Of a DNA stretch of 64,000 bases, positions 16,516-23,360 are shown piece by piece. This stretch comes from Pelagomonas calceolata. Taxonomy: Eukaryota. The position numbers and the translations under genes were made by a program. The stretch lies in assembly GCA_918797485.1 (NCBI GenBank), contig CAKKNE010000003.1, forward strand, positions 3,658,001 through 3,722,000, read 5' to 3'. How positions within the stretch are numbered: position 1 is the first letter of the stretch; the number at the start of each line of letters is the position of its first letter. Under the pieces are notes generated by a model. It did no database searches. It saw nothing but the letters and a program-made list of their open reading frames with translations, and had not been told where the DNA came from.

Positions 16516-18405
16516 ATGGCCTTCCCCGCTCTGAGGCGCGCTTTGGTGGCGGTCGCGCTGTGTCGCGTCGTGGACGGCTGTGACTGCTGGGGGTGGTGGA
16601 CCTGCACCTGCTCTTGGAATTTTTGCACCTGCGCCGCAGCGCCGGCGCCGGCGCCCGCGCCCGCACCGGCGCCGGCTCCGGCGCCAGCCCCGGCGCCGGC
16701 GCCAGCCCCGGCCCCGGCGCCGGGCGACGACAACTCGGGTTCGGTCGGGGCGACCAGCGGCTCCTTCGTGTACGTCGATCAAGCGAAGAGCTTCGACGAC
16801 GCGCGCGCGTACTGCCGCGCGAACTATCACGACCTCGCGTCGATCCACAGCTCCAGCGAGAATGCGGTAGTAGCGGCGCTTTGTCCCGGTGAATCATGCT
16901 GGATCGGGGGCTCCGACGCGGCCCAAGAGGGCACGTGGACCTGGTCGGACGGCACGGCGTGGGACTACGAGACCTGGAGAAGCAATCAGCCCGATAATTG
17001 GAATAATGATGAAGACTGTCTACAAATTAGATCCGATGACAAGTGGAACGACGGTAGTTGCAATGCCGATGATGATCAACCGTTCGTGTGCGAGACGCAG
17101 GTGGCGGCTGATTACGCTCAATGCATGCAGTGGTTCGGCAGCACCGAGTACGGTGGCGGATACGACCATTGCTGTTTCCGCCTTGACAACAACGCGCTCA
17201 CGTGCCCGACGTGGGAGTCACGCTGCTCGGATCTAGTCAGCGGCGAGGCAGACTACGCTCAATGCATGCGATGGGCTGGCAGCACCGCGTACGGTGGGAA
17301 ATACGACCATTGCTGTTTCCGCCTTGACGACAACGGGCTCACGTGCCCGACATGGGAGTCGCGATGTGAGGCGCTCACGCTGGTCCGGGTCCCGGCGCCG
17401 GGCGACGGCGGCGGCGGCGGCAAAAAGAAGGGCGGCGGCAGCGCCGCCGCCGGCGCCATCGTAATGGGGGTCGGCTTCGCCATCTTCTTAGGCTGCTGCC
17501 TGGCGGCGGTGCTGGCGGAGCAGTGCCGCAAGCGCGCGGCGGAGCGCGACCAGGTCGCGCCGGCGCCGGCGCCCCGGGTCGAGCTCCCACCGCGGTGCGC
17601 GCGGCCGGCGGCCGCGCAGCGCCCGCGCGGCCTGAGGATCGAAAGCGTGGCGGCGACGGAGGCCACCCTCGCGTGGGAGCAGGGCTCCGCGGTGAGCTTC
17701 GAGGTGCAGTGGCGCAGGACCGGGGGCGCCTGGCAGCCGGGCGCGACCGTCAGGAGGAGCAAGGCGCGCGTGACCGATCTGGACGCCGGCGGCGCCTACG
17801 CGTTTCGCGTGCGCGCCTTCGGCGGCGACTGGTCGTACGAGGTCTCGGCGCGGCTGGCGGCACCGGCACCTCGCGCGCGGCCGGCGGCCGCGCAGCGCCC
17901 GCGCGGCCTGAGGATCGAAAGCGTGGCGGCGACGGAGGTCACGCTCGCGTGGGAGCAGGGCTCCGCGCAGAGCTTCGAGGTGCAGTGGCGCAGGACCGGG
18001 GGCGCCTGGCACCCCCGGTGCCTACGCGTCAGGAGGAGCAGGGCGCGCGTGAGCGATCTGGACGCCGGCGGCGCCTACGCGTTTCGCGTGCGCGCCGACG
18101 GCGGCGACTGGTCGTACGAGGTCTCGGCGCGGCTGGCCGCACCGGCGCCGACGCCGGAGCCCCGGGCCGAGCCCGCGCCCCGGGCCGAGCCCGCGCCAGA
18201 GCGTTCGAGCGAAACAGACGAGTGCCCCGTCTGCCTCGAGCGGGCGCGCGATACCGCGTTCATGCCGTGCGGGCACCGGGTCTGCGCCGAATGCGCCCGC
18301 ACACTCTCCGGGACGGCCTGGAGAGGATCGGGGCCGAGGGGCGATAGTGAGTCCCGGTGCCCCGTCTGCCGCCAGCCGTTCACCGGGACTCTCCGGCTCT
18401 TCTGA
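16516..18405 (+). CDS. Type I membrane protein: signal peptide, (AP)n stalk, C-type lectin, 2 Cys-rich repeats, TM, 2 FN3-like repeats, C3HC4 RING
   Basis: CTL: ARAYC..LASIHS..WIGG..WSDG..QPDN..EDC..WND..C; TM AIVMGVGFAIFLGCCLAAVL; RING CPVCLE...PCGHRVCAEC...CPVCR. Confidence 0.85.
   Translation: MAFPALRRALVAVALCRVVDGCDCWGWWTCTCSWNFCTCAAAPAPAPAPAPAPAPAPAPAPAPAPAPAPGDDNSGSVGATSGSFVYVDQAKSFDDARAYCRANYHDLASIHSSSENAVVAALCPGESCWIGGSDAAQEGTWTWSDGTAWDYETWRSNQPDNWNNDEDCLQIRSDDKWNDGSCNADDDQPFVCETQVAADYAQCMQWFGSTEYGGGYDHCCFRLDNNALTCPTWESRCSDLVSGEADYAQCMRWAGSTAYGGKYDHCCFRLDDNGLTCPTWESRCEALTLVRVPAPGDGGGGGKKKGGGSAAAGAIVMGVGFAIFLGCCLAAVLAEQCRKRAAERDQVAPAPAPRVELPPRCARPAAAQRPRGLRIESVAATEATLAWEQGSAVSFEVQWRRTGGAWQPGATVRRSKARVTDLDAGGAYAFRVRAFGGDWSYEVSARLAAPAPRARPAAAQRPRGLRIESVAATEVTLAWEQGSAQSFEVQWRRTGGAWHPRCLRVRRSRARVSDLDAGGAYAFRVRADGGDWSYEVSARLAAPAPTPEPRAEPAPRAEPAPERSSETDECPVCLERARDTAFMPCGHRVCAECARTLSGTAWRGSGPRGDSESRCPVCRQPFTGTLRLF
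16637..16722 (+). repeat. (Ala-Pro)n coding hexanucleotide repeat
   Basis: GCGCCG-type tandem units. Confidence 0.9.
17107..17367 (+). repeat. Two-copy Cys-rich coding repeat, period 141 nt
   Basis: ADYAQCMxWxGSTxYGGxYDHCCFRLDxNxLTCPTWESRC twice. Confidence 0.9.
17599..18148 (+). repeat. Two-copy FN3-like coding repeat, period 276 nt
   Basis: Near-identical DNA copies starting at 17599 and 17875. Confidence 0.9.
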
Positions 18406-18497
18406 CCCCTACACCTCCGACCGACCTTTCCGTTATTTCGTCTGAATATCGCCCCCTTAATACTTGAACCGTTCAGTGCCCGAGAACATTAAATAAG

Positions 18498-20531
18498 TTA
18501 CGCGGCGTCGCGCCAGGATTCCGCAAGCGCGCGCTCGACCATGGCCTCCTCCTCGGCCGCCGACGTCGGCGGCACTAGCGGCCCCGCCGACGAGCCCTCC
18601 CCCTCGAAGGACGCCGCGAGCTGGGCCGATTGGCGCGAGGAGACGGCGAGCTGGTACTGATCCTCGGCCGCGAGCTGGAGCGCGAGGGCCTCGTCGTCGG
18701 CGGTGGGCGCGGAGGCTCCGGAGAGCGGCGCGCCGGCGTCGAAGAGGAACGCCGCGACGTGGGCTTGGTCGTCGCCGCCGGGAGACGTCACGCCGCCGAG
18801 CTTCTCGAGGAGCTCGTCGGCGCACCGCTGGCGGTTGTAGAGGGCGTGGCCGTCGAGGCCCTCGCGGCCCGTGAGCATCTTGCGGTGGCAGAGCTGCAAC
18901 TCGCAGACGTGCTGCGTCCTGTCAGCCCGGAGCACCAGGTTCACCATGACGTCCCTCCACTTCGAGGGCGGCGGATGGTTGATGCGGTCCTTGACGCGGA
19001 CGACCGTCACTTCCTTCGATTCTTCGAGGCGTCTAAGGAGGTCCGTCAAATCCTCGAGCGTGTCACAAATTATCATGTCGCGGACGACGTCGCAGACGCG
19101 GGACGTGTCGCGCGGCGCCTCGGGCTGCAGGGCGCACTTTTCGACGATGCGCGAGGCCGACTTGAGCGGCGGGCGCTTGCGCTCGACGCGGCGGCCCGCC
19201 GCGGTGGCCGCGGCAACGAGGGCGCCGACCGCGGCGTCGAACGCGGGCGCCGCCGCGGCCGCGTCGACGAGCAGCGGCACGACGCGCGTCGCACGCTGCC
19301 TGATCGGCGTCGCCGCGCCCGGAAACGACCGCACCGCCGCGTCGTACCGGGCCTTGGCGTCGCGCTCGGACTCGGCGACGGTCGCGAAGATGGACTCGTA
19401 GACGCCCGCGAAGAACGCCGTCGCCTGCGCCGACACCTCGCGGAACGTGTCGGCGCCGACGGCTGCGACCTCCGCGGCGATGGCGGCGTCGACCCGCGCG
19501 GCGAGGTGCGGGCACTCGCGCTCCAGCGCGGCGGTCTCGGGCAGCTCCTGCTGCGCCCGGTTCGCGAAGTGGTAGTCGGCGGCGAGCTCGGGGCGTTTGG
19601 CGAACTGGACGAAGCGCCGGAGCGCGCCGTCGGGCATGGGCGCGTCGACGCGGCCGCTGGCCGCGGCGCGCAGCTCCTCCGCGCGCCGCCGCGCCGCCGC
19701 CGCGTCCGCGTCGTCCGGCGCGACGCCGAGCGCGAAGGCGTAGTCGAGGTGGTCGTAGAGCTCCTTGAGCGGCGTCGCGGCGGCGGCCGTAAGCTTCCGG
19801 AGCTTCGCCCGCGCCGCGCCCACGGCCTTCGAGTGCTCCTGGTCCAGGCGGGACTCCGTTCGCCGCAGTCTCCGCATCCGCGCCTGGTGGAGCGCGATGC
19901 CGTACCGCGGCGCCTGGTCGAGCCACGCGCGGCACGCGTCGGCGACCTGGTGGAGCGCCTCGCTTTTTATGGAATTGAGGCCCAGGTCCCGCAGCACCGC
20001 CTCCGGCTCCGCCGCGGTCGCGAGGTCCGCGCCCGTGACCCCGGCGCGCTCGAAGGCCGTGGTGACTTTCGTGGCCGTGCGCGCGTCGAGCAGCCCCCCT
20101 CCAAATTCTTCGCGCACCTGCTGCAGGAGCTGCTCCGCGGTCCACTCGTTGACCGGCCGGCCCTTGCGGTCGGCCAACTTTTTGCAGTGGGCGCGGTGGA
20201 GCGCCAGGACCTGGTCGAACGCGGCGCGAACGGCCCGGCGTTCCCGGAAGCCGGGCGGCACGCCGCGCGCGTCCATGAGCGCGCCGACCGCGTCGGCCTC
20301 GACGCCGTCGCCGTCGCAGGCCGCGACGAGGGCCGCGCCCGTCGTCCGCGAGAAGCGGGCGACGGTGCGGTCGTCGACCTTGTTCGCGCGCAGGTGGAGC
20401 GCGAGCGCCGCGGCCGTCCAGTACCGCGGCGGCCGCGTCTTGCTGGCCTTGGCCGCGTCCTCCGCGTGCACGCGCCGCTGCCGGTGGCGGTCGCCGCAGG
20501 CCTTGACGCAGGCCCGGCAGGCCTTGATCAT
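18498..20531 (-). CDS. SAM-like + RelA/SpoT-type nucleotidyltransferase-like domain + 2 UIM-like motifs; start uncertain
   Basis: LKSASRIVEK...DVVRDMI...VRVKDR...WRDVMVN...HVCELQ; VNEWTAEQL...FERAGVTGADL; DDEALALQLAAED and EEEAMVERALAES. Confidence 0.7.
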   Translation of the reverse strand: MIKACRACVKACGDRHRQRRVHAEDAAKASKTRPPRYWTAAALALHLRANKVDDRTVARFSRTTGAALVAACDGDGVEADAVGALMDARGVPPGFRERRAVRAAFDQVLALHRAHCKKLADRKGRPVNEWTAEQLLQQVREEFGGGLLDARTATKVTTAFERAGVTGADLATAAEPEAVLRDLGLNSIKSEALHQVADACRAWLDQAPRYGIALHQARMRRLRRTESRLDQEHSKAVGAARAKLRKLTAAAATPLKELYDHLDYAFALGVAPDDADAAAARRRAEELRAAASGRVDAPMPDGALRRFVQFAKRPELAADYHFANRAQQELPETAALERECPHLAARVDAAIAAEVAAVGADTFREVSAQATAFFAGVYESIFATVAESERDAKARYDAAVRSFPGAATPIRQRATRVVPLLVDAAAAAPAFDAAVGALVAAATAAGRRVERKRPPLKSASRIVEKCALQPEAPRDTSRVCDVVRDMIICDTLEDLTDLLRRLEESKEVTVVRVKDRINHPPPSKWRDVMVNLVLRADRTQHVCELQLCHRKMLTGREGLDGHALYNRQRCADELLEKLGGVTSPGGDDQAHVAAFLFDAGAPLSGASAPTADDEALALQLAAEDQYQLAVSSRQSAQLAASFEGEGSSAGPLVPPTSAAEEEAMVERALAESWRDAA

Positions 20532-20957
20532 ACCATCAGCCTCGACTCCGTCCACCACCTGAGAGCACCATAACGCGCCAAAGGGCTGCCATGCAACGCA
20601 GGCGCTGCCTCGGCCTGCGAGCAGAGCTTTGGGCAGTCGAATTGTTTTTTAGGCGTCCGCCGGCCACCCGTCGCGCGCCCGAGGCCTGAGGGAGGCGTCG
20701 GATCGAGTCGAACGAAAGGCAACTTTCGATCTACTAGCCCTCGTTCTGCCGGCCGACAACGCCGCCGGCACGCGAGCTGCCCGCCGAATCCAGCCGGCGA
20801 CTCGGCAGCCTCCCAGTTGCGTCGGGCCCATCGCCAGCAGGGCAACCGACCAGCGGGCTTCGCTCCGACCGCCGCCCGCGCGCAAGCACAGCGTGAGGTA
20901 AGCCATCCAAACCGGGCAGCCCCCCACGCCGCCACACGGGACGCACCGCGCACCACC

Positions 20958-23360
20958 ATGGGCGGCGGCGGCTCCAAGACCGCCCCCGAGGGCGAAAATG
21001 AGGAGGACGAGCTGCCCAGGGAGACGGAGGACGACAAGAAGGACCCGAACAACAAGCCGCTGGACGTGGGCAAGGATTTTGGGGGACCCTGCAAGAAGCG
21101 CAAGTGCACCGATGTGCTCTGTACATTACTCTTAGCCTTCGCGTGGTTCTGCATGACGGTCGTGGGCTTGGCCTGCATTCCTGGGAGCCCGATAGAAGGC
21201 ACTATGGGCCTGCAGAAGGGCAACCCCTACAAATTAATTAATGGCATCGACTACAAGGATCGCGTCTGCGGCATCGATTCAGATGTCAAGGATAGATTAA
21301 AATTGTACTACTTACCGACCGGCTCCGGAGTCTGCATCAAGAAGTGCCCGGAAAAGCAGAATGCGCAAGCGTTTCATTGTACGGACGATGCTCAAGAAAA
21401 ATTGGACAAAATCGACAGAACACAGACGGGCTGGGAGGTGCTTTATGTGGCCAAGGGCTTCGAGATGGTCAAGGAGTGCAACGACCCGAAGTGCAGCGAC
21501 CCGCAGTCGCTGCGGCGGTGCCAGTGCTGCGCGCCGTACTACCCGACGAACGACGTCATGAATTATTGTGTGAGCGAGCAAGCCCAAGCGGTCGCGGCGG
21601 CGGCCGGCGACCAGGCGGCCCAGCAGGCCGCCGACGCCACGAAGCCGTGCGACCCGACGCCGCCGCCGGTTGCCGGCGCGACAAAAGCACCCACACCGTT
21701 ATGTGGCGCGGCGTTGGCCGCCGAATCCCAGGAGCGGGACTACACCGAAAAGATGTACGCCGACATGATGGTGAGCATGTGGTACATCTTTGGCTTTGGC
21801 TTTTTTGGCGCGATATTTGTGGGCTTCGTGTATACCTTCATCCTCAGGATTCCTGGCGTATTAGCATTAGTCGTGTGGGGCATCATCGTCGCCGTCGGCG
21901 TCTTCTGGCTCGCCCTGGCGGCCATGTGCTACCAGACGTCGGTGGCCTGGAAACAAGATGAAGATCGCGACGCGAACCAGGCGAACGGCATGCTGTACTT
22001 GGCCTACTTCTGCGCCGCGCTCTGCGCGTTGTGGGCCTGCACGATCTGCTGCCTGCGGAAGCGCATCGCGCTGGCGATTGGCATCACGAAAGAAGCCGCG
22101 AAGTGCATCGCGACGATGCCGATCATCATCGCGCGCCCGCCGCGTCCAATTTTGAGCCCTGTCGGACCGCGCGGTCGCCTCGACGCGATCTTCATGGGTC
22201 GCGGCGATGGCGTAGGGCTCACACGCCATCGACGCGACTCGTCAGACTCGTTCGCGCCGCTTCGACGGCGTCCCGAGCCACGGACCGCGCGCAGGTCTTC
22301 CCCGTCGTCCAAGTCATGGCGTTGATCGTCTTCGTCATCCCCTGGTTCATCTACTGCCTCTTCCTCGCTTCCAGTGGAGAGATGGAGACGGTCAAGGGCG
22401 CGCGGCAGATGGTCTACGACGAGACGACCTTTAAAGCAGGGTGGTACATGATATTTGTGTACTTCTGGAGCTCGGAATTCATCATCGCGCTCGGACAGAT
22501 CATCCTCGCGCTAGCCGTATCAACATGGTACTTCACGCGCGACAAGGGCAAGATCGGCAATTCGACCGTGATCTGGAGCTTCAGACAAGGCGCGTGGTAC
22601 CACTGGGGCACGGCGGCCTTCGGCAGTCTCATAATAGCCATCATCAAGACGATCCGAGCGATGATCAAGTACATCCAGAAGAAGTGCAAGAACATCAAGA
22701 ATCCCGTGGCCAAGAAGATCGCCATGGCGGTGCTCTGCTGCATCGACTGCTGCATGTGGTGTGCGTGACCCAGTGTACCACTTTGATCGGGACGCGGCCG
22801 CCGCGATGGCGTCGACGTGGCCGCCAGAGAGCACACACTGTCGTTCCCCCACAGGCATCGAGAAGTGCATGAAGTTCATCAACAAGAACGCCTACATCCA
22901 GACGGCGATCTTTGGGTACCACTTCTGCAAGGCGGCGAAGTGCGCGTTCTTCCTGATTCTCAGGAATATTGCTCGTATTATGGCGCTGTCGATCGTGTCC
23001 GGATTCGTGCTGCTCCTGGGCAAACTCGTGATCACCGCTGGAGCTACATTTTTATGCTATGTGTGCCTGGCCTACACTCCAGTAAGCGACGAATTGAACT
23101 ACATCTGGCTTCCATTAGTTTTCACGGCTATAATAGCCTTCTACGTCGCCGCGATGTTCAATGAAGTGTGGGGCATGGCCATGTCGACGATCTTGCAGTG
23201 CTTCTGCGCCGACGAGGAAATTTATAAAGGAGACAAGGACGCGATGTACGCCGGGTCCGACCTCAAGGCGACGGTCTCGAACTCCAACAAGGGCAAGTTC
23301 GCGAAGAAGTCCAAGGTCGCGGCGGCGCCGGCCGAGGACGAGGGTGACGCGGTCATCTAG
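20958..23360 (+). CDS. Choline transporter-like protein (CTL/SLC44), 3 exons (introns 22131-22294, 22761-22854)
   Basis: KRKCTDVLC, GIDYKDRVCG, YHWGTAAFGSLIIAI, CIEKCMKFINKNAYIQTAIFG..FC. Confidence 0.92.

What the first reader, a model, noticed from the sequence alone, without database searches (positions are those of the whole stretch)
18498..20531. Eukaryotic SAM / RelA-SpoT-like synthetase / UIM protein
Seen: the motif order K-x3-R-x2-EK, D-x2-R, RVKDR, WRD-x3-N, H-x-CELQ resembles the RelA/SpoT synthetase (nucleotidyltransferase) fold. There is no HD hydrolase domain and no visible plastid presequence. SAM-like segments lie upstream and two ubiquitin-interacting-motif-like helices lie downstream. 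Established: canonical algal RSH proteins are plastid-targeted, and bacterial small alarmone synthetases include defence toxins. Inference: a cytosolic nucleotide second-messenger or effector enzyme gated by oligomerisation and ubiquitin.
Basis: partly seen in the sequence, partly recalled or inferred. Interest (0 to 1): 0.72.

Follow-up and report, generated by a model that had tools for sequence, protein, structure and literature searches.

The report
Algal SAM-coupled alarmone synthetase, swappable effector
A marine microbial eukaryote has a transcribed gene that joins two predicted clustering (SAM) domains to a bacterial-toxin-type "alarmone" enzyme with its catalytic residues intact; relatives swap this enzyme for another or attach it to receptor-like sensors, so it likely works as a cytoplasmic defence effector, which is untested.

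Summary
Real, unspliced, weakly transcribed 677-aa gene (18498-20531, minus strand). Residues 412-578 are a RelA/SpoT-superfamily synthetase: Pfam above cut-off; AlphaFold pLDDT 94.7, top 11 structural matches all RSH synthetases. It is not a plastid RSH or RelA/SpoT. It has the D-x2-R signature of the bacterial RelV/exported-synthetase/Apk branch, which scores 46-80 bits against the family profile versus 10 or less for RelA/SpoT. Two SAM folds are supported structurally. The tail holds one UIM-like and one MIU-like helix, at pattern level only, and some alleles lack it. The enzyme module belongs to a large family (1,752 clusters at E<=1e-10) fused to LRR, ankyrin, TIR, kinase or ectodomain-transmembrane parts, with no hydrolase seen. 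Close relatives put a PARP domain behind the same SAM pair and share this locus's upstream DNA. The gene also shows a paralogue-derived tract and near-identity across otherwise diverged lineages. Best reading: a clustering-activated pyrophosphokinase effector of protist defence (about 50%). Product, trigger and ubiquitin binding are untested.

The parts
18498..20531 (-). Whole ORF, 677 aa (P0001): SAM-SAM-helical linker-family helical subdomain-RSH synthetase-MIU/UIM-like tail
   Evidence: one probable RNA contig covers 18485-20545 without a skip; sense poly(A) reads at the 3' end
20187..20435 (-). SAM domain 1 (res 33-115), predicted
   Evidence: AlphaFold model; VIA-align Z 9.0, rmsd 1.8, 72 of 75 residues against 3bs7; SARM1/TIR-1 SAMs Z 7.5-8.2
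19908..20159 (-). SAM domain 2 (res 125-208), predicted, weaker
   Evidence: VIA-align Z 7.1, rmsd 2.2, 67 aligned against 1x40; an integrase N-terminal domain ties at Z 7.0
19782..19904 (-). Long linker helix (res 210-250); similarity to the PARP-bearing relatives ends at about res 228
19299..19664 (-). Family-specific helical subdomain (res 290-411) with near-invariant F307 and Y378; not matched in the bacterial relatives; candidate autoinhibitory or substrate-binding part (inferred)
18798..19298 (-). RSH synthetase domain (res 412-578), D-x2-R type: K457, R461, K465, D481, R484, K514, W525, E544, Q546, H562, Y565
18999..19052 (-). Tract (res 494-511) that matches receptor-type paralogues rather than this gene's closest relatives; likely gene conversion
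18669..18698 (-). MIU-like helix (res 612-621), pattern only
   Evidence: no Pfam hit
18507..18560 (-). UIM-like helix (res 658-675), pattern only; duplicated in 9 of 16 close relatives aligned
20536..20592 (-). Out-of-frame upstream ORF (ATGs at 20592 and 20571). The 20571 ATG corresponds to the start of the membrane-anchored PARP-type relatives; this allele lacks their hydrophobic hairpin
20563..20906 (-). Upstream DNA whose read-through matches the N-terminal read-through of PARP-type proteins P0165 and P0188, linking them to this locus

Best explanation
The gene encodes two predicted SAM domains joined to a RelA/SpoT-superfamily synthetase domain with intact catalytic residues, and it likely works in the cytoplasm as a clustering-activated defence effector that would move pyrophosphate from ATP onto a purine nucleotide. 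Shown here: the fold (by prediction and search), the conserved active-site set, the RelV/Apk-type signature, lack of a hydrolase domain, transcription, and module shuffling among relatives. Inferred: (1) the enzyme is kept off, possibly by the family-specific helical subdomain; (2) an upstream signal drives SAM-SAM clustering, as in SARM1, or in sister proteins an LRR, ankyrin or extracellular sensor does so; (3) the active enzyme makes an alarmone-like product and drains ATP, arresting or killing the challenged cell. My odds on the product: (p)ppApp or mixed 45%, (p)ppGpp 25%, an RNA end or other acceptor 25%, inactive 5%. The MIU/UIM-like tail is an optional, locus-specific add-on that may tie the protein to ubiquitinated cargo.
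For: Fold: model pLDDT 94.7; Foldseek top rows all RSH synthetases, best E 8.6e-6; VIA-align ranks 1-11 all RSH synthetases, Z 13.2 to 7.9. Active site: D481, R484, K514, E544, Q546 correspond to SaEAS D121, R124, K154, E182, Q184 and Apk1 R330, K353, E382 (PMC12691689); 135 of 145 relatives keep all 13 key residues. Branch: profile A1 hits 10 of 401 proteobacterial genomes, all D-x2-R proteins; 14 such bacterial or phage proteins score 46-80 bits and RelA/SpoT at most 10.1; quick tree separates family plus D-x2-R proteins from RelA/SpoT at 100. Characterised members of this branch act on nucleotides and are toxic in the cytoplasm. Defence-like context: 53 of 148 relatives carry LRR, DUF285, decapeptide, ankyrin or HEAT repeats, 2 TIR, 3 kinase, 0 HD (hand count); receptor layouts P0010, P0012, P0197, P0007, P0109, P0138. 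Effector swap: the same SAM pair precedes a PARP domain in P0165 and P0166, whose kin share this locus's upstream DNA. Rapid exchange: conversion-like tract; 5 of 86 fourfold sites differ in this gene against 26 of 50 in the neighbouring transporter gene on contig L002, p 1e-9. Precedent: RelA_SpoT is an effector domain of fungal NLRs (PMC4986451).
Against: No activity, product, trigger or phenotype is shown. The acceptor site differs from every characterised enzyme I could compare: W525 replaces the base-stacking Tyr (0 of 145 have Tyr) and Met/Leu replaces the His/Asn four residues on, so the acceptor may not be a free nucleotide. By structure score the best matches are housekeeping RelP (Z 13.2) and Rel (12.1), above SaEAS (10.0) and Tas1 (9.9). 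The tree is a quick one with a long-branch warning and lacks RelP/RelQ, CapRel, fungal and plastid enzymes. SAM support for repeat 2 is middling and there is no Pfam SAM hit. Repeat, kinase and receptor fusions fit ordinary signalling as well as defence. 95 of 148 relatives show no repeat domain (many are fragments). The chimeric relatives and L002 come from metagenome assemblies and could be mis-assemblies. No PADLOC model matches the domain. Transcription is low, from one sample of raw reads.
Confidence: 0.5

Rival explanations
1. A non-toxic second-messenger enzyme: receptor-like members make a low, reversible cytosolic (p)ppGpp/(p)ppApp signal for nutrient or surface sensing, removed by a stand-alone hydrolase, much as receptor cyclases do.
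For: Ectodomain-TM-synthetase and TM-kinase-synthetase layouts. The nearest cellular bacterial relatives are RelV/VpEAS-like, and VpEAS makes (p)ppGpp. Unplaced stand-alone hydrolases (divSpo) are listed for Aureococcus and Emiliania (PMC3153485).
Against: Effector swapping with PARP, conversion tracts and near-identity across diverged lineages suit conflict more than housekeeping signalling. No cytosolic target of such a signal appeared in my literature searches.
Confidence: 0.22
2. A macromolecule-modifying toxin: it pyrophosphorylates a 3' end of tRNA or another RNA, like CapRel or FaRel2, and shuts down translation when clustered.
For: Changed acceptor site (W525, M529) and a conserved 120-residue helical extension before the catalytic core; in FaRel2 an N-terminal helical extension binds tRNA (PMC11782079). 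CapRel ranks third structurally, Z 11.4.
Against: FaRel2 has the D90-x2-G93-x-R95 arrangement, which 0 of 145 family members have at that place. The characterised D-x2-R enzymes in the papers read act on free nucleotides.
Confidence: 0.2
3. A degenerate or near-silent copy: a catalytically dead scaffold, or an allele crippled by loss of the membrane anchor and by an out-of-frame upstream ORF.
For: The start used by the membrane-anchored relatives is out of frame here; RNA depth is low; the canonical Syn1 and Syn2 arginines are missing at their usual places.
Against: The same N-terminus occurs in 14 of 16 close relatives aligned with the frame and catalytic set kept. The missing arginines are replaced by R461 and R484 exactly as in active EAS/Apk enzymes.
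Confidence: 0.08

Closest known systems
RelV / VpEAS exported alarmone synthetases (Vibrionales) and SaEAS (Streptomyces; PDB 8VX3)
   Same: K-x3-R-x2-(E)K, D-x2-R, K-[DN]-R, R-D, E-x-Q and H-x2-Y motifs in register; no hydrolase; best cellular bacterial hits of the family profile. That the unnamed 257-268 aa hits are RelV/VpEAS-like is my inference from size, motif and N-terminus.
   Different: No Sec signal; G-loop W-R-D-x-M instead of Y-R-D-x-N; extra 120-residue helical subdomain; fused to SAM, LRR, TIR, kinase or TM modules; eukaryotic gene.
Apk1/Tas1 and Apk2 (p)ppApp synthetase toxins; phage polyvalent-protein RelA/SpoT domains
   Same: D-x2-R active-site layout; Tas1 has the highest sequence identity (21%) among structural matches; best BFVD hits are phage RelA/SpoT proteins, E 7.8e-8, 27% identity; the phage PHB04 protein aligns at HHalign 96.5% and has Met at the M529 place.
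   Different: No secretion or capsid domain and no adjacent immunity or hydrolase gene; control would have to be in cis or by clustering.
Fungal NLRs with an N-terminal RelA_SpoT effector (PMC4986451); divRel synthetases of fungi, Dictyostelium and diatoms (PMC3153485)
   Same: A eukaryotic, hydrolase-free RelA/SpoT domain used as a swappable effector beside repeat sensors.
   Different: No NACHT or NB-ARC domain in P0001 or in 148 relatives scanned; SAM, LRR and receptor layouts instead. Whether the fungal or diatom domains belong to the same branch was not tested.
SARM1 / TIR-1 (tandem SAM plus nucleotide-consuming enzyme)
   Same: Tandem SAM domains ahead of an enzyme; SARM1/TIR-1 SAMs are among the top structural matches, Z 7.5-8.2. 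SARM1's mechanism is recalled, not read here.
   Different: The enzyme is a pyrophosphokinase fold (or a PARP in relatives), not TIR; no ARM domain; analogy only, no homology claimed beyond the SAM fold.
Plastid RSH1-RSH4 of plants and algae (PMC6881373, PMC10107265)
   Same: Synthetase fold in a nuclear gene of a probable alga.
   Different: No HD, TGS or ACT domain, no visible targeting peptide, different active-site signature.

Membership tests
RSH synthetase (SYNTH) superfamily | Pol-beta-like SYNTH fold | tested here: met
   top 11 VIA-align rows are RSH synthetases; best Z 13.2, rmsd 2.8, 150 aligned
RSH synthetase (SYNTH) superfamily | Pfam PF04607 above curated cut-off | tested here: met
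   30.4 bits against 27. Only 6 of 148 relatives pass it
RSH synthetase (SYNTH) superfamily | Catalytic Asp, Glu-x-Gln and Syn1 lysines | tested here: met
   D481, E544, Q546, K457, K465 align with RelA/SpoT; 98-100% conserved in 145 relatives
RSH synthetase (SYNTH) superfamily | ATP-dependent 3'-pyrophosphoryl transfer | not testable with these tools
   needs an assay
Long RSH (RelA, SpoT, Rel, plastid RSH1-4) | HD hydrolase domain and TGS/ACT region | tested here: not met
   0 of 148 relatives have an HD, TGS or ACT hit at E<=1e-4
Long RSH (RelA, SpoT, Rel, plastid RSH1-4) | Syn1 R-x-K and Syn2 D-x4-R arginines | tested here: not met
   Arg at 455 in 6 of 145 and at 486 in 0 of 145
Long RSH (RelA, SpoT, Rel, plastid RSH1-4) | Plastid-targeting presequence (algal forms) | tested here: inconclusive
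   no hydrophobic signal segment by hydropathy; no targeting predictor available
RelV/EAS-Apk (D-x2-R) branch | D-x2-R after the catalytic Asp, K-x3-R-x2-(E)K helix | tested here: met
   (SaEAS D121/R124)
RelV/EAS-Apk (D-x2-R) branch | Groups with these proteins by profile score and tree | tested here: met
   quick tree, long-branch warning, limited outgroups
RelV/EAS-Apk (D-x2-R) branch | G-loop Y-R-D-x-N (SaEAS N169, Apk1 N370) | tested here: not met
   W525-R-D-x-M529; Tyr in 0 of 145, Asn at 529 in 1 of 145. Hence a sister family, not RelV, EAS or Apk itself
RelV/EAS-Apk (D-x2-R) branch | Export signal or secretion/capsid domain, or adjacent immunity gene | tested here: not met
   neighbours are a lectin-RING gene and a choline-transporter-like gene
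tRNA-modifying toxSAS (CapRel, FaRel2) | D-x2-G-x-R motif; cognate antitoxin | tested here: not met
   no PADLOC hit for P0001
Fungal NLR with RelA_SpoT effector | NACHT or NB-ARC domain | tested here: not met
SAM domain | Five-helix SAM fold | tested here: met
   repeat 1 Z 9.0, rmsd 1.8, 72 aligned, 17 of the top 17 rows SAM-type; repeat 2 Z 7.1, less secure
SAM domain | Pfam SAM profile match | tested here: inconclusive
   none at E<=10; divergent SAMs can be missed
SAM domain | Self-association or polymer formation | not tested
   no job was run on the SAM pair
UIM / MIU ubiquitin-binding helices | Acidic-hydrophobic-x2-Ala-x3-Ser (UIM) or acidic-Leu-Ala-x2-Leu (MIU) pattern | tested here: inconclusive
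   one match each to recalled patterns; 193 and 67 of 10,000 shuffles; no Pfam hit
UIM / MIU ubiquitin-binding helices | Ubiquitin binding | not testable with these tools
   needs a pull-down

The most novel reading that the evidence does not exclude
Marine protists run an undescribed innate-immune branch built on a bacterial toxin enzyme: receptor-like (LRR, FG-GAP or cysteine-repeat ectodomain, membrane span, synthetase) and SARM1-like (SAM-SAM-synthetase) proteins make a pyrophosphorylated nucleotide in the cytosol on attack, and this locus carries interchangeable effector alleles, alarmone synthetase or PARP, that pass between otherwise diverged lineages.
Probability: 0.3. Interest if true: 0.9.

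Novelty: new variant of a known kind. Interest (0 to 1): 0.7.

Why it matters
In the papers read, eukaryotic alarmone synthesis is a plastid affair, apart from scattered unplaced synthetases and fungal NLR fusions that were not assayed. Here a large family of RelV/Apk-type synthetases sits in sensor- and receptor-type proteins and mostly falls below the Pfam cut-off (6 of 148 pass), which may be why it was overlooked. If active, it would give a cytosolic source of (p)ppNpp-type nucleotides in eukaryotes and a testable defence effector in marine plankton. A locus that may hold either a synthetase or a PARP behind the same SAM pair offers a direct test of effector polymorphism. The enzyme domain can be assayed at once in E. 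coli.

Tried and rejected
No whole genome was held, so paralogue number and the presence of a hydrolase gene elsewhere were not tested; the window holds no second copy. Predicted homodimer of the enzyme core: no verdict, score 0.00, alignment not used; it counts neither way. ESM Atlas: no usable hit for the whole protein; for res 405-582 unnamed clusters, two of the best three mostly eukaryotic on few records, a lead only. No relative was found in viral contigs, nor by tblastn of res 420-582 in plasmid or phage records at E<=0.01; a peptide-pattern scan of metagenomes with the SAM alignment confirmed none of 600 candidates, and a DNA pattern found one contig. The two SAM repeats do not align to each other by BLASTP. 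A SAM-like stretch that I suspected in P0016 was not supported by Pfam or HHalign. NCBIfam and PADLOC gave nothing for P0001. Foldseek alone gave no significant match for the SAM model. Cluster look-ups gave almost no organism names, so the family's range is not established. I first equated N531 with SaEAS N169 and withdrew it after the alignment: the matching residue is M529. Rejected: shadow ORF of a GC-rich opposite frame (conservation and sense reads); bacterial contamination (eukaryotic spliced neighbours; same gene order on L002); plastid RSH. L025 and L030 were not extracted, and L020 was left out of the tree. The Tas1 structure paper was not held. Paper search used too strict a phrase and is uninformative.
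Full report
1. The gene. The finding is a 677-codon ORF on the minus strand, 20531 to 18498. It lies tail to tail with a C-type lectin-TM-FN3-RING gene and head to head with a choline-transporter-like gene. Neighbouring genes are spliced (CT..AC, GC..AG and GT..AG joints), so the host is a eukaryote. The identical protein is in NCBI and UniRef on a 5.39-Mb contig. Its relatives come from marine metagenomes. That the host is a pelagophyte alga is my recall from GC content and gene style; no call names it. Stranded poly(A) reads from four runs of one sample (6-12% of each run read) lie on the sense strand at depth 0.1-8.9 over 18438-19071 and near zero further upstream. A contig of a probable RNA run covers 18485-20545 without a skip, and three contigs of a second study cover 18481-20604 with two small holes; both runs drop to zero in part of the intergenic DNA. 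So the gene is transcribed at a low level and appears unspliced.

2. The enzyme domain. Pfam RelA_SpoT scores 30.4 bits against a cut-off of 27. An AlphaFold model of res 290-582 from 114 sequences has pLDDT 94.7. Foldseek's listed rows are all RSH synthetases (best E 8.6e-6). VIA-align ranks 1-11 are all RSH synthetases: RelP Z 13.2 (rmsd 2.8, 150 aligned), Rel 12.1, CapRel 11.4, SaEAS 10.0, Tas1 9.9. The catalytic Asp481, Glu544-x-Gln546 and Lys457/Lys465 align with RelA and SpoT. Of 145 relatives aligned over the catalytic part (median identity 43%), 135 keep all 13 key residues; they were selected by similarity, which favours conservation.

3. Which branch. Canonical enzymes have D-x4-R (FaRel2 D90, G93, R95; PMC11782079, passages). 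P0001 has D481-x2-R484, and 0 of 145 relatives have Arg at the canonical place. SaEAS has D121 (inactivating when mutated) and R124, matched to Apk1 R330 (PMC12691689, passages and section 5). A profile of 11 close sequences hit 10 of 401 proteobacterial genomes, one being the centre genome; RelA and SpoT, present in 5 of 5 genomes checked, were not among the hits. A deep profile scored 14 bacterial or phage D-x2-R proteins at 46-80 bits and RelA/SpoT at most 10.1 (8 of 9 listed). A quick tree of 62 rows put the 40 family rows together (99) and with the 14 D-x2-R proteins, apart from 8 RelA/SpoT rows (100), with a long-branch warning. One of these proteins lies in phage PHB04 between a portal gene and a small ORF plus an annotated (p)ppGpp hydrolase, which resembles the Apk2 operon (PMC10083569, passages). 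The best BFVD matches are phage RelA/SpoT proteins. The family differs from this branch in the acceptor loop (W525-R-D-x-M529 for Y-R-D-x-N) and in a 120-residue helical subdomain with near-invariant F307 and Y378. It is therefore a eukaryotic sister family, not RelV, EAS or Apk. A donor or direction of transfer is not shown.

4. The flanking modules. The model of res 25-250 (4 sequences, pLDDT 75) matches SAM domains: repeat 1 Z 9.0, rmsd 1.8 over 72 of 75 residues; repeat 2 Z 7.1; SARM1/TIR-1 Z 7.5-8.2. Foldseek and Pfam gave no significant SAM hit. The tail has one MIU-like and one UIM-like helix by recalled patterns (67 and 193 of 10,000 shuffles), with no Pfam hit. Among 16 close sequences aligned, 9 have two UIM-like copies, 3 have one, 3 end before the tail and 1 is cut short. 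Ubiquitin binding is thus a plausible local feature, not a family trait.

5. A large shuffled family. The profile found 4,297 clusters at E<=0.001, 1,752 at 1e-10 and 331 at 1e-30 among 1.84 billion representatives. The weak tail probably includes bacterial proteins, and no taxonomy is given. I scanned 148 of the best 150 (the other two). By hand count at E<=1e-4: 24 LRR, 15 DUF285, 11 decapeptide repeat, 4 ankyrin, 1 HEAT (53 with any repeat), 3 kinase, 3 EF-hand, 2 TIR, 1 WWE, and 0 HD, TGS, ACT, NACHT or NB-ARC; some hits lie under curated cut-offs and many proteins are fragments. Only 17 of 148 hit RelA_SpoT at that level and 6 pass its cut-off. Eleven of 148 have a membrane-like segment outside the domain. 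Receptor layouts include signal-FG-GAP-TM-synthetase (P0010, P0012), FG-GAP plus cysteine repeats-TMs-synthetase (P0197), DUF285-TM-synthetase (P0007), LRR-TM-synthetase (P0109) and TM-kinase-synthetase (P0138). One member comes from EukProt.

6. Effector swap and exchange at this locus. P0165 and P0166 share the SAM pair at 80-83% identity but continue into a PARP domain and begin with a hydrophobic hairpin. The N-terminal read-through of P0165 and P0188 matches the DNA upstream of this gene, 20563-20906, and matches contig L002 better still (P0188 res 1-94, 84%). L002 has the same gene order as the window. The simplest reading is that PARP and synthetase versions are alternative forms at one locus; duplication with the promoter is not excluded. 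P0175 joins the hairpin N-terminus to the synthetase, and P0171 joins the SAM pair to a paralogue-type C-terminus; both are from metagenome assemblies and may be chimeras. In the window the start used by the anchored forms is an out-of-frame upstream ORF. Residues 494-511 of P0001 match the receptor-type paralogues (79%) better than 13 close relatives (53%) in the 15-residue window from 500, and only 1 of 16 close sequences has this tract. A diverged paralogue is present in DNA of the same organism label (877-base contig, 31 differences over 194 bases). On L002 the transporter gene differs at 26 of 50 fourfold sites and this gene at 5 of 86 (p 1e-9; about 50% expected at saturation). That points to recent exchange between lineages, unless L002 is mis-assembled.

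7. Mechanism. Shown: fold, active-site set, branch signature, absence of hydrolase, transcription, shuffling. Inferred: ATP-dependent pyrophosphoryl transfer in the cytosol, held off in cis and switched on by SAM clustering or by a fused sensor, giving an alarmone-like product and ATP drain. Enzymes of this branch are toxic in the cytoplasm without their export signal, which fits low expression and the upstream ORF. I put 0.5 on the defence-effector reading, 0.22 on benign signalling, 0.2 on RNA-end modification and 0.08 on a dead copy.

8. What is known. Atkinson 2011 (PMC3153485, passages) lists unplaced synthetases in fungi, Dictyostelium and two diatoms, and unplaced hydrolases in Aureococcus and Emiliania. 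Dyrka 2014 (PMC4986451, passages) reports RelA_SpoT as a swappable effector of fungal NLRs. Avilan 2019 (PMC6881373, passages) and the review PMC10107265 (passages) treat long, plastid-type RSH. Zhang 2012 and Iyer 2017 (PMC3482391, PMC5512222, passages) describe the domain in bacterial toxins and phage polyvalent proteins. Ten searches of the held library (most results seen as listings only) returned no paper describing this family, SAM- or receptor-fused synthetases, or a synthetase/PARP swap. Subscription journals and supplements were not covered. Earlier AI notes of this scan describe similar fusions in other protists; they are unchecked and are not counted as support.

9. Verdict. Observation confirmed with one correction on the tail; interpretation partly supported. 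A new variant of a known kind: a eukaryotic, sensor-coupled offshoot of the RelV/Apk synthetases. Interest 0.70.

Noticed in passing
window 16516-18405 (+): Neighbouring gene with C-type lectin, a membrane-like segment, two FN3 repeats and a RING finger: a receptor-like E3 ligase, tail to tail with the finding, GC-rich like it (71%), transcribed, with variant reads and loose ends that suggest alleles or paralogues. A RING ligase beside a protein with ubiquitin-binding-like helices may be chance.
   Followed up: partly
window 20545, run X4: The probable RNA contig goes on for 60 letters that do not fit the stretch, starting just after an AG on the minus strand; a second run's contig continues unspliced to 20604. 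Alternative 5' exon, other allele or assembly artefact; unexplained.
   Followed up: partly
P0165, P0166, P0184, P0187-P0189: Hydrophobic hairpin-SAM-SAM-PARP proteins; the catalytic domain looks by recall like the mono-ADP-ribosylating PARP7/12/14 type. Worth its own study as the alternative effector.
   Followed up: partly
window 20520-20531 (res 1-12): The N-terminus carries three cysteines in a basic helix, at the place of the juxtamembrane cysteines of the anchored relatives; lipid modification could replace the lost anchor (inference).
   Followed up: no
L004:5077-7342 (phage PHB04): Unannotated synthetase-bearing gene behind the portal gene, followed by a 69-codon ORF and an annotated (p)ppGpp hydrolase: an Apk2-like operon.
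   Followed up: partly
L005:2716-4548: Two tandem RelV/EAS-like synthetase genes with N-terminal signal-like segments on a Photobacterium replicon.
   Followed up: no
BFVD rows 14 and 17: Weak structural matches in giant-virus proteins (Hyperionvirus, E 2.8e-3; Fadolivirus, E 1.2e-2).
   Followed up: no
window 22131-22294: A GC..AG intron in the transporter-like gene, well supported by reads.
   Followed up: no
P0018, P0157, P0137, P0215: Family members with two synthetase modules and DUF285 repeats, with a 5'-nucleotidase C-terminal domain, with WWE plus LRR, and with TIR plus HEAT repeats.
   Followed up: no
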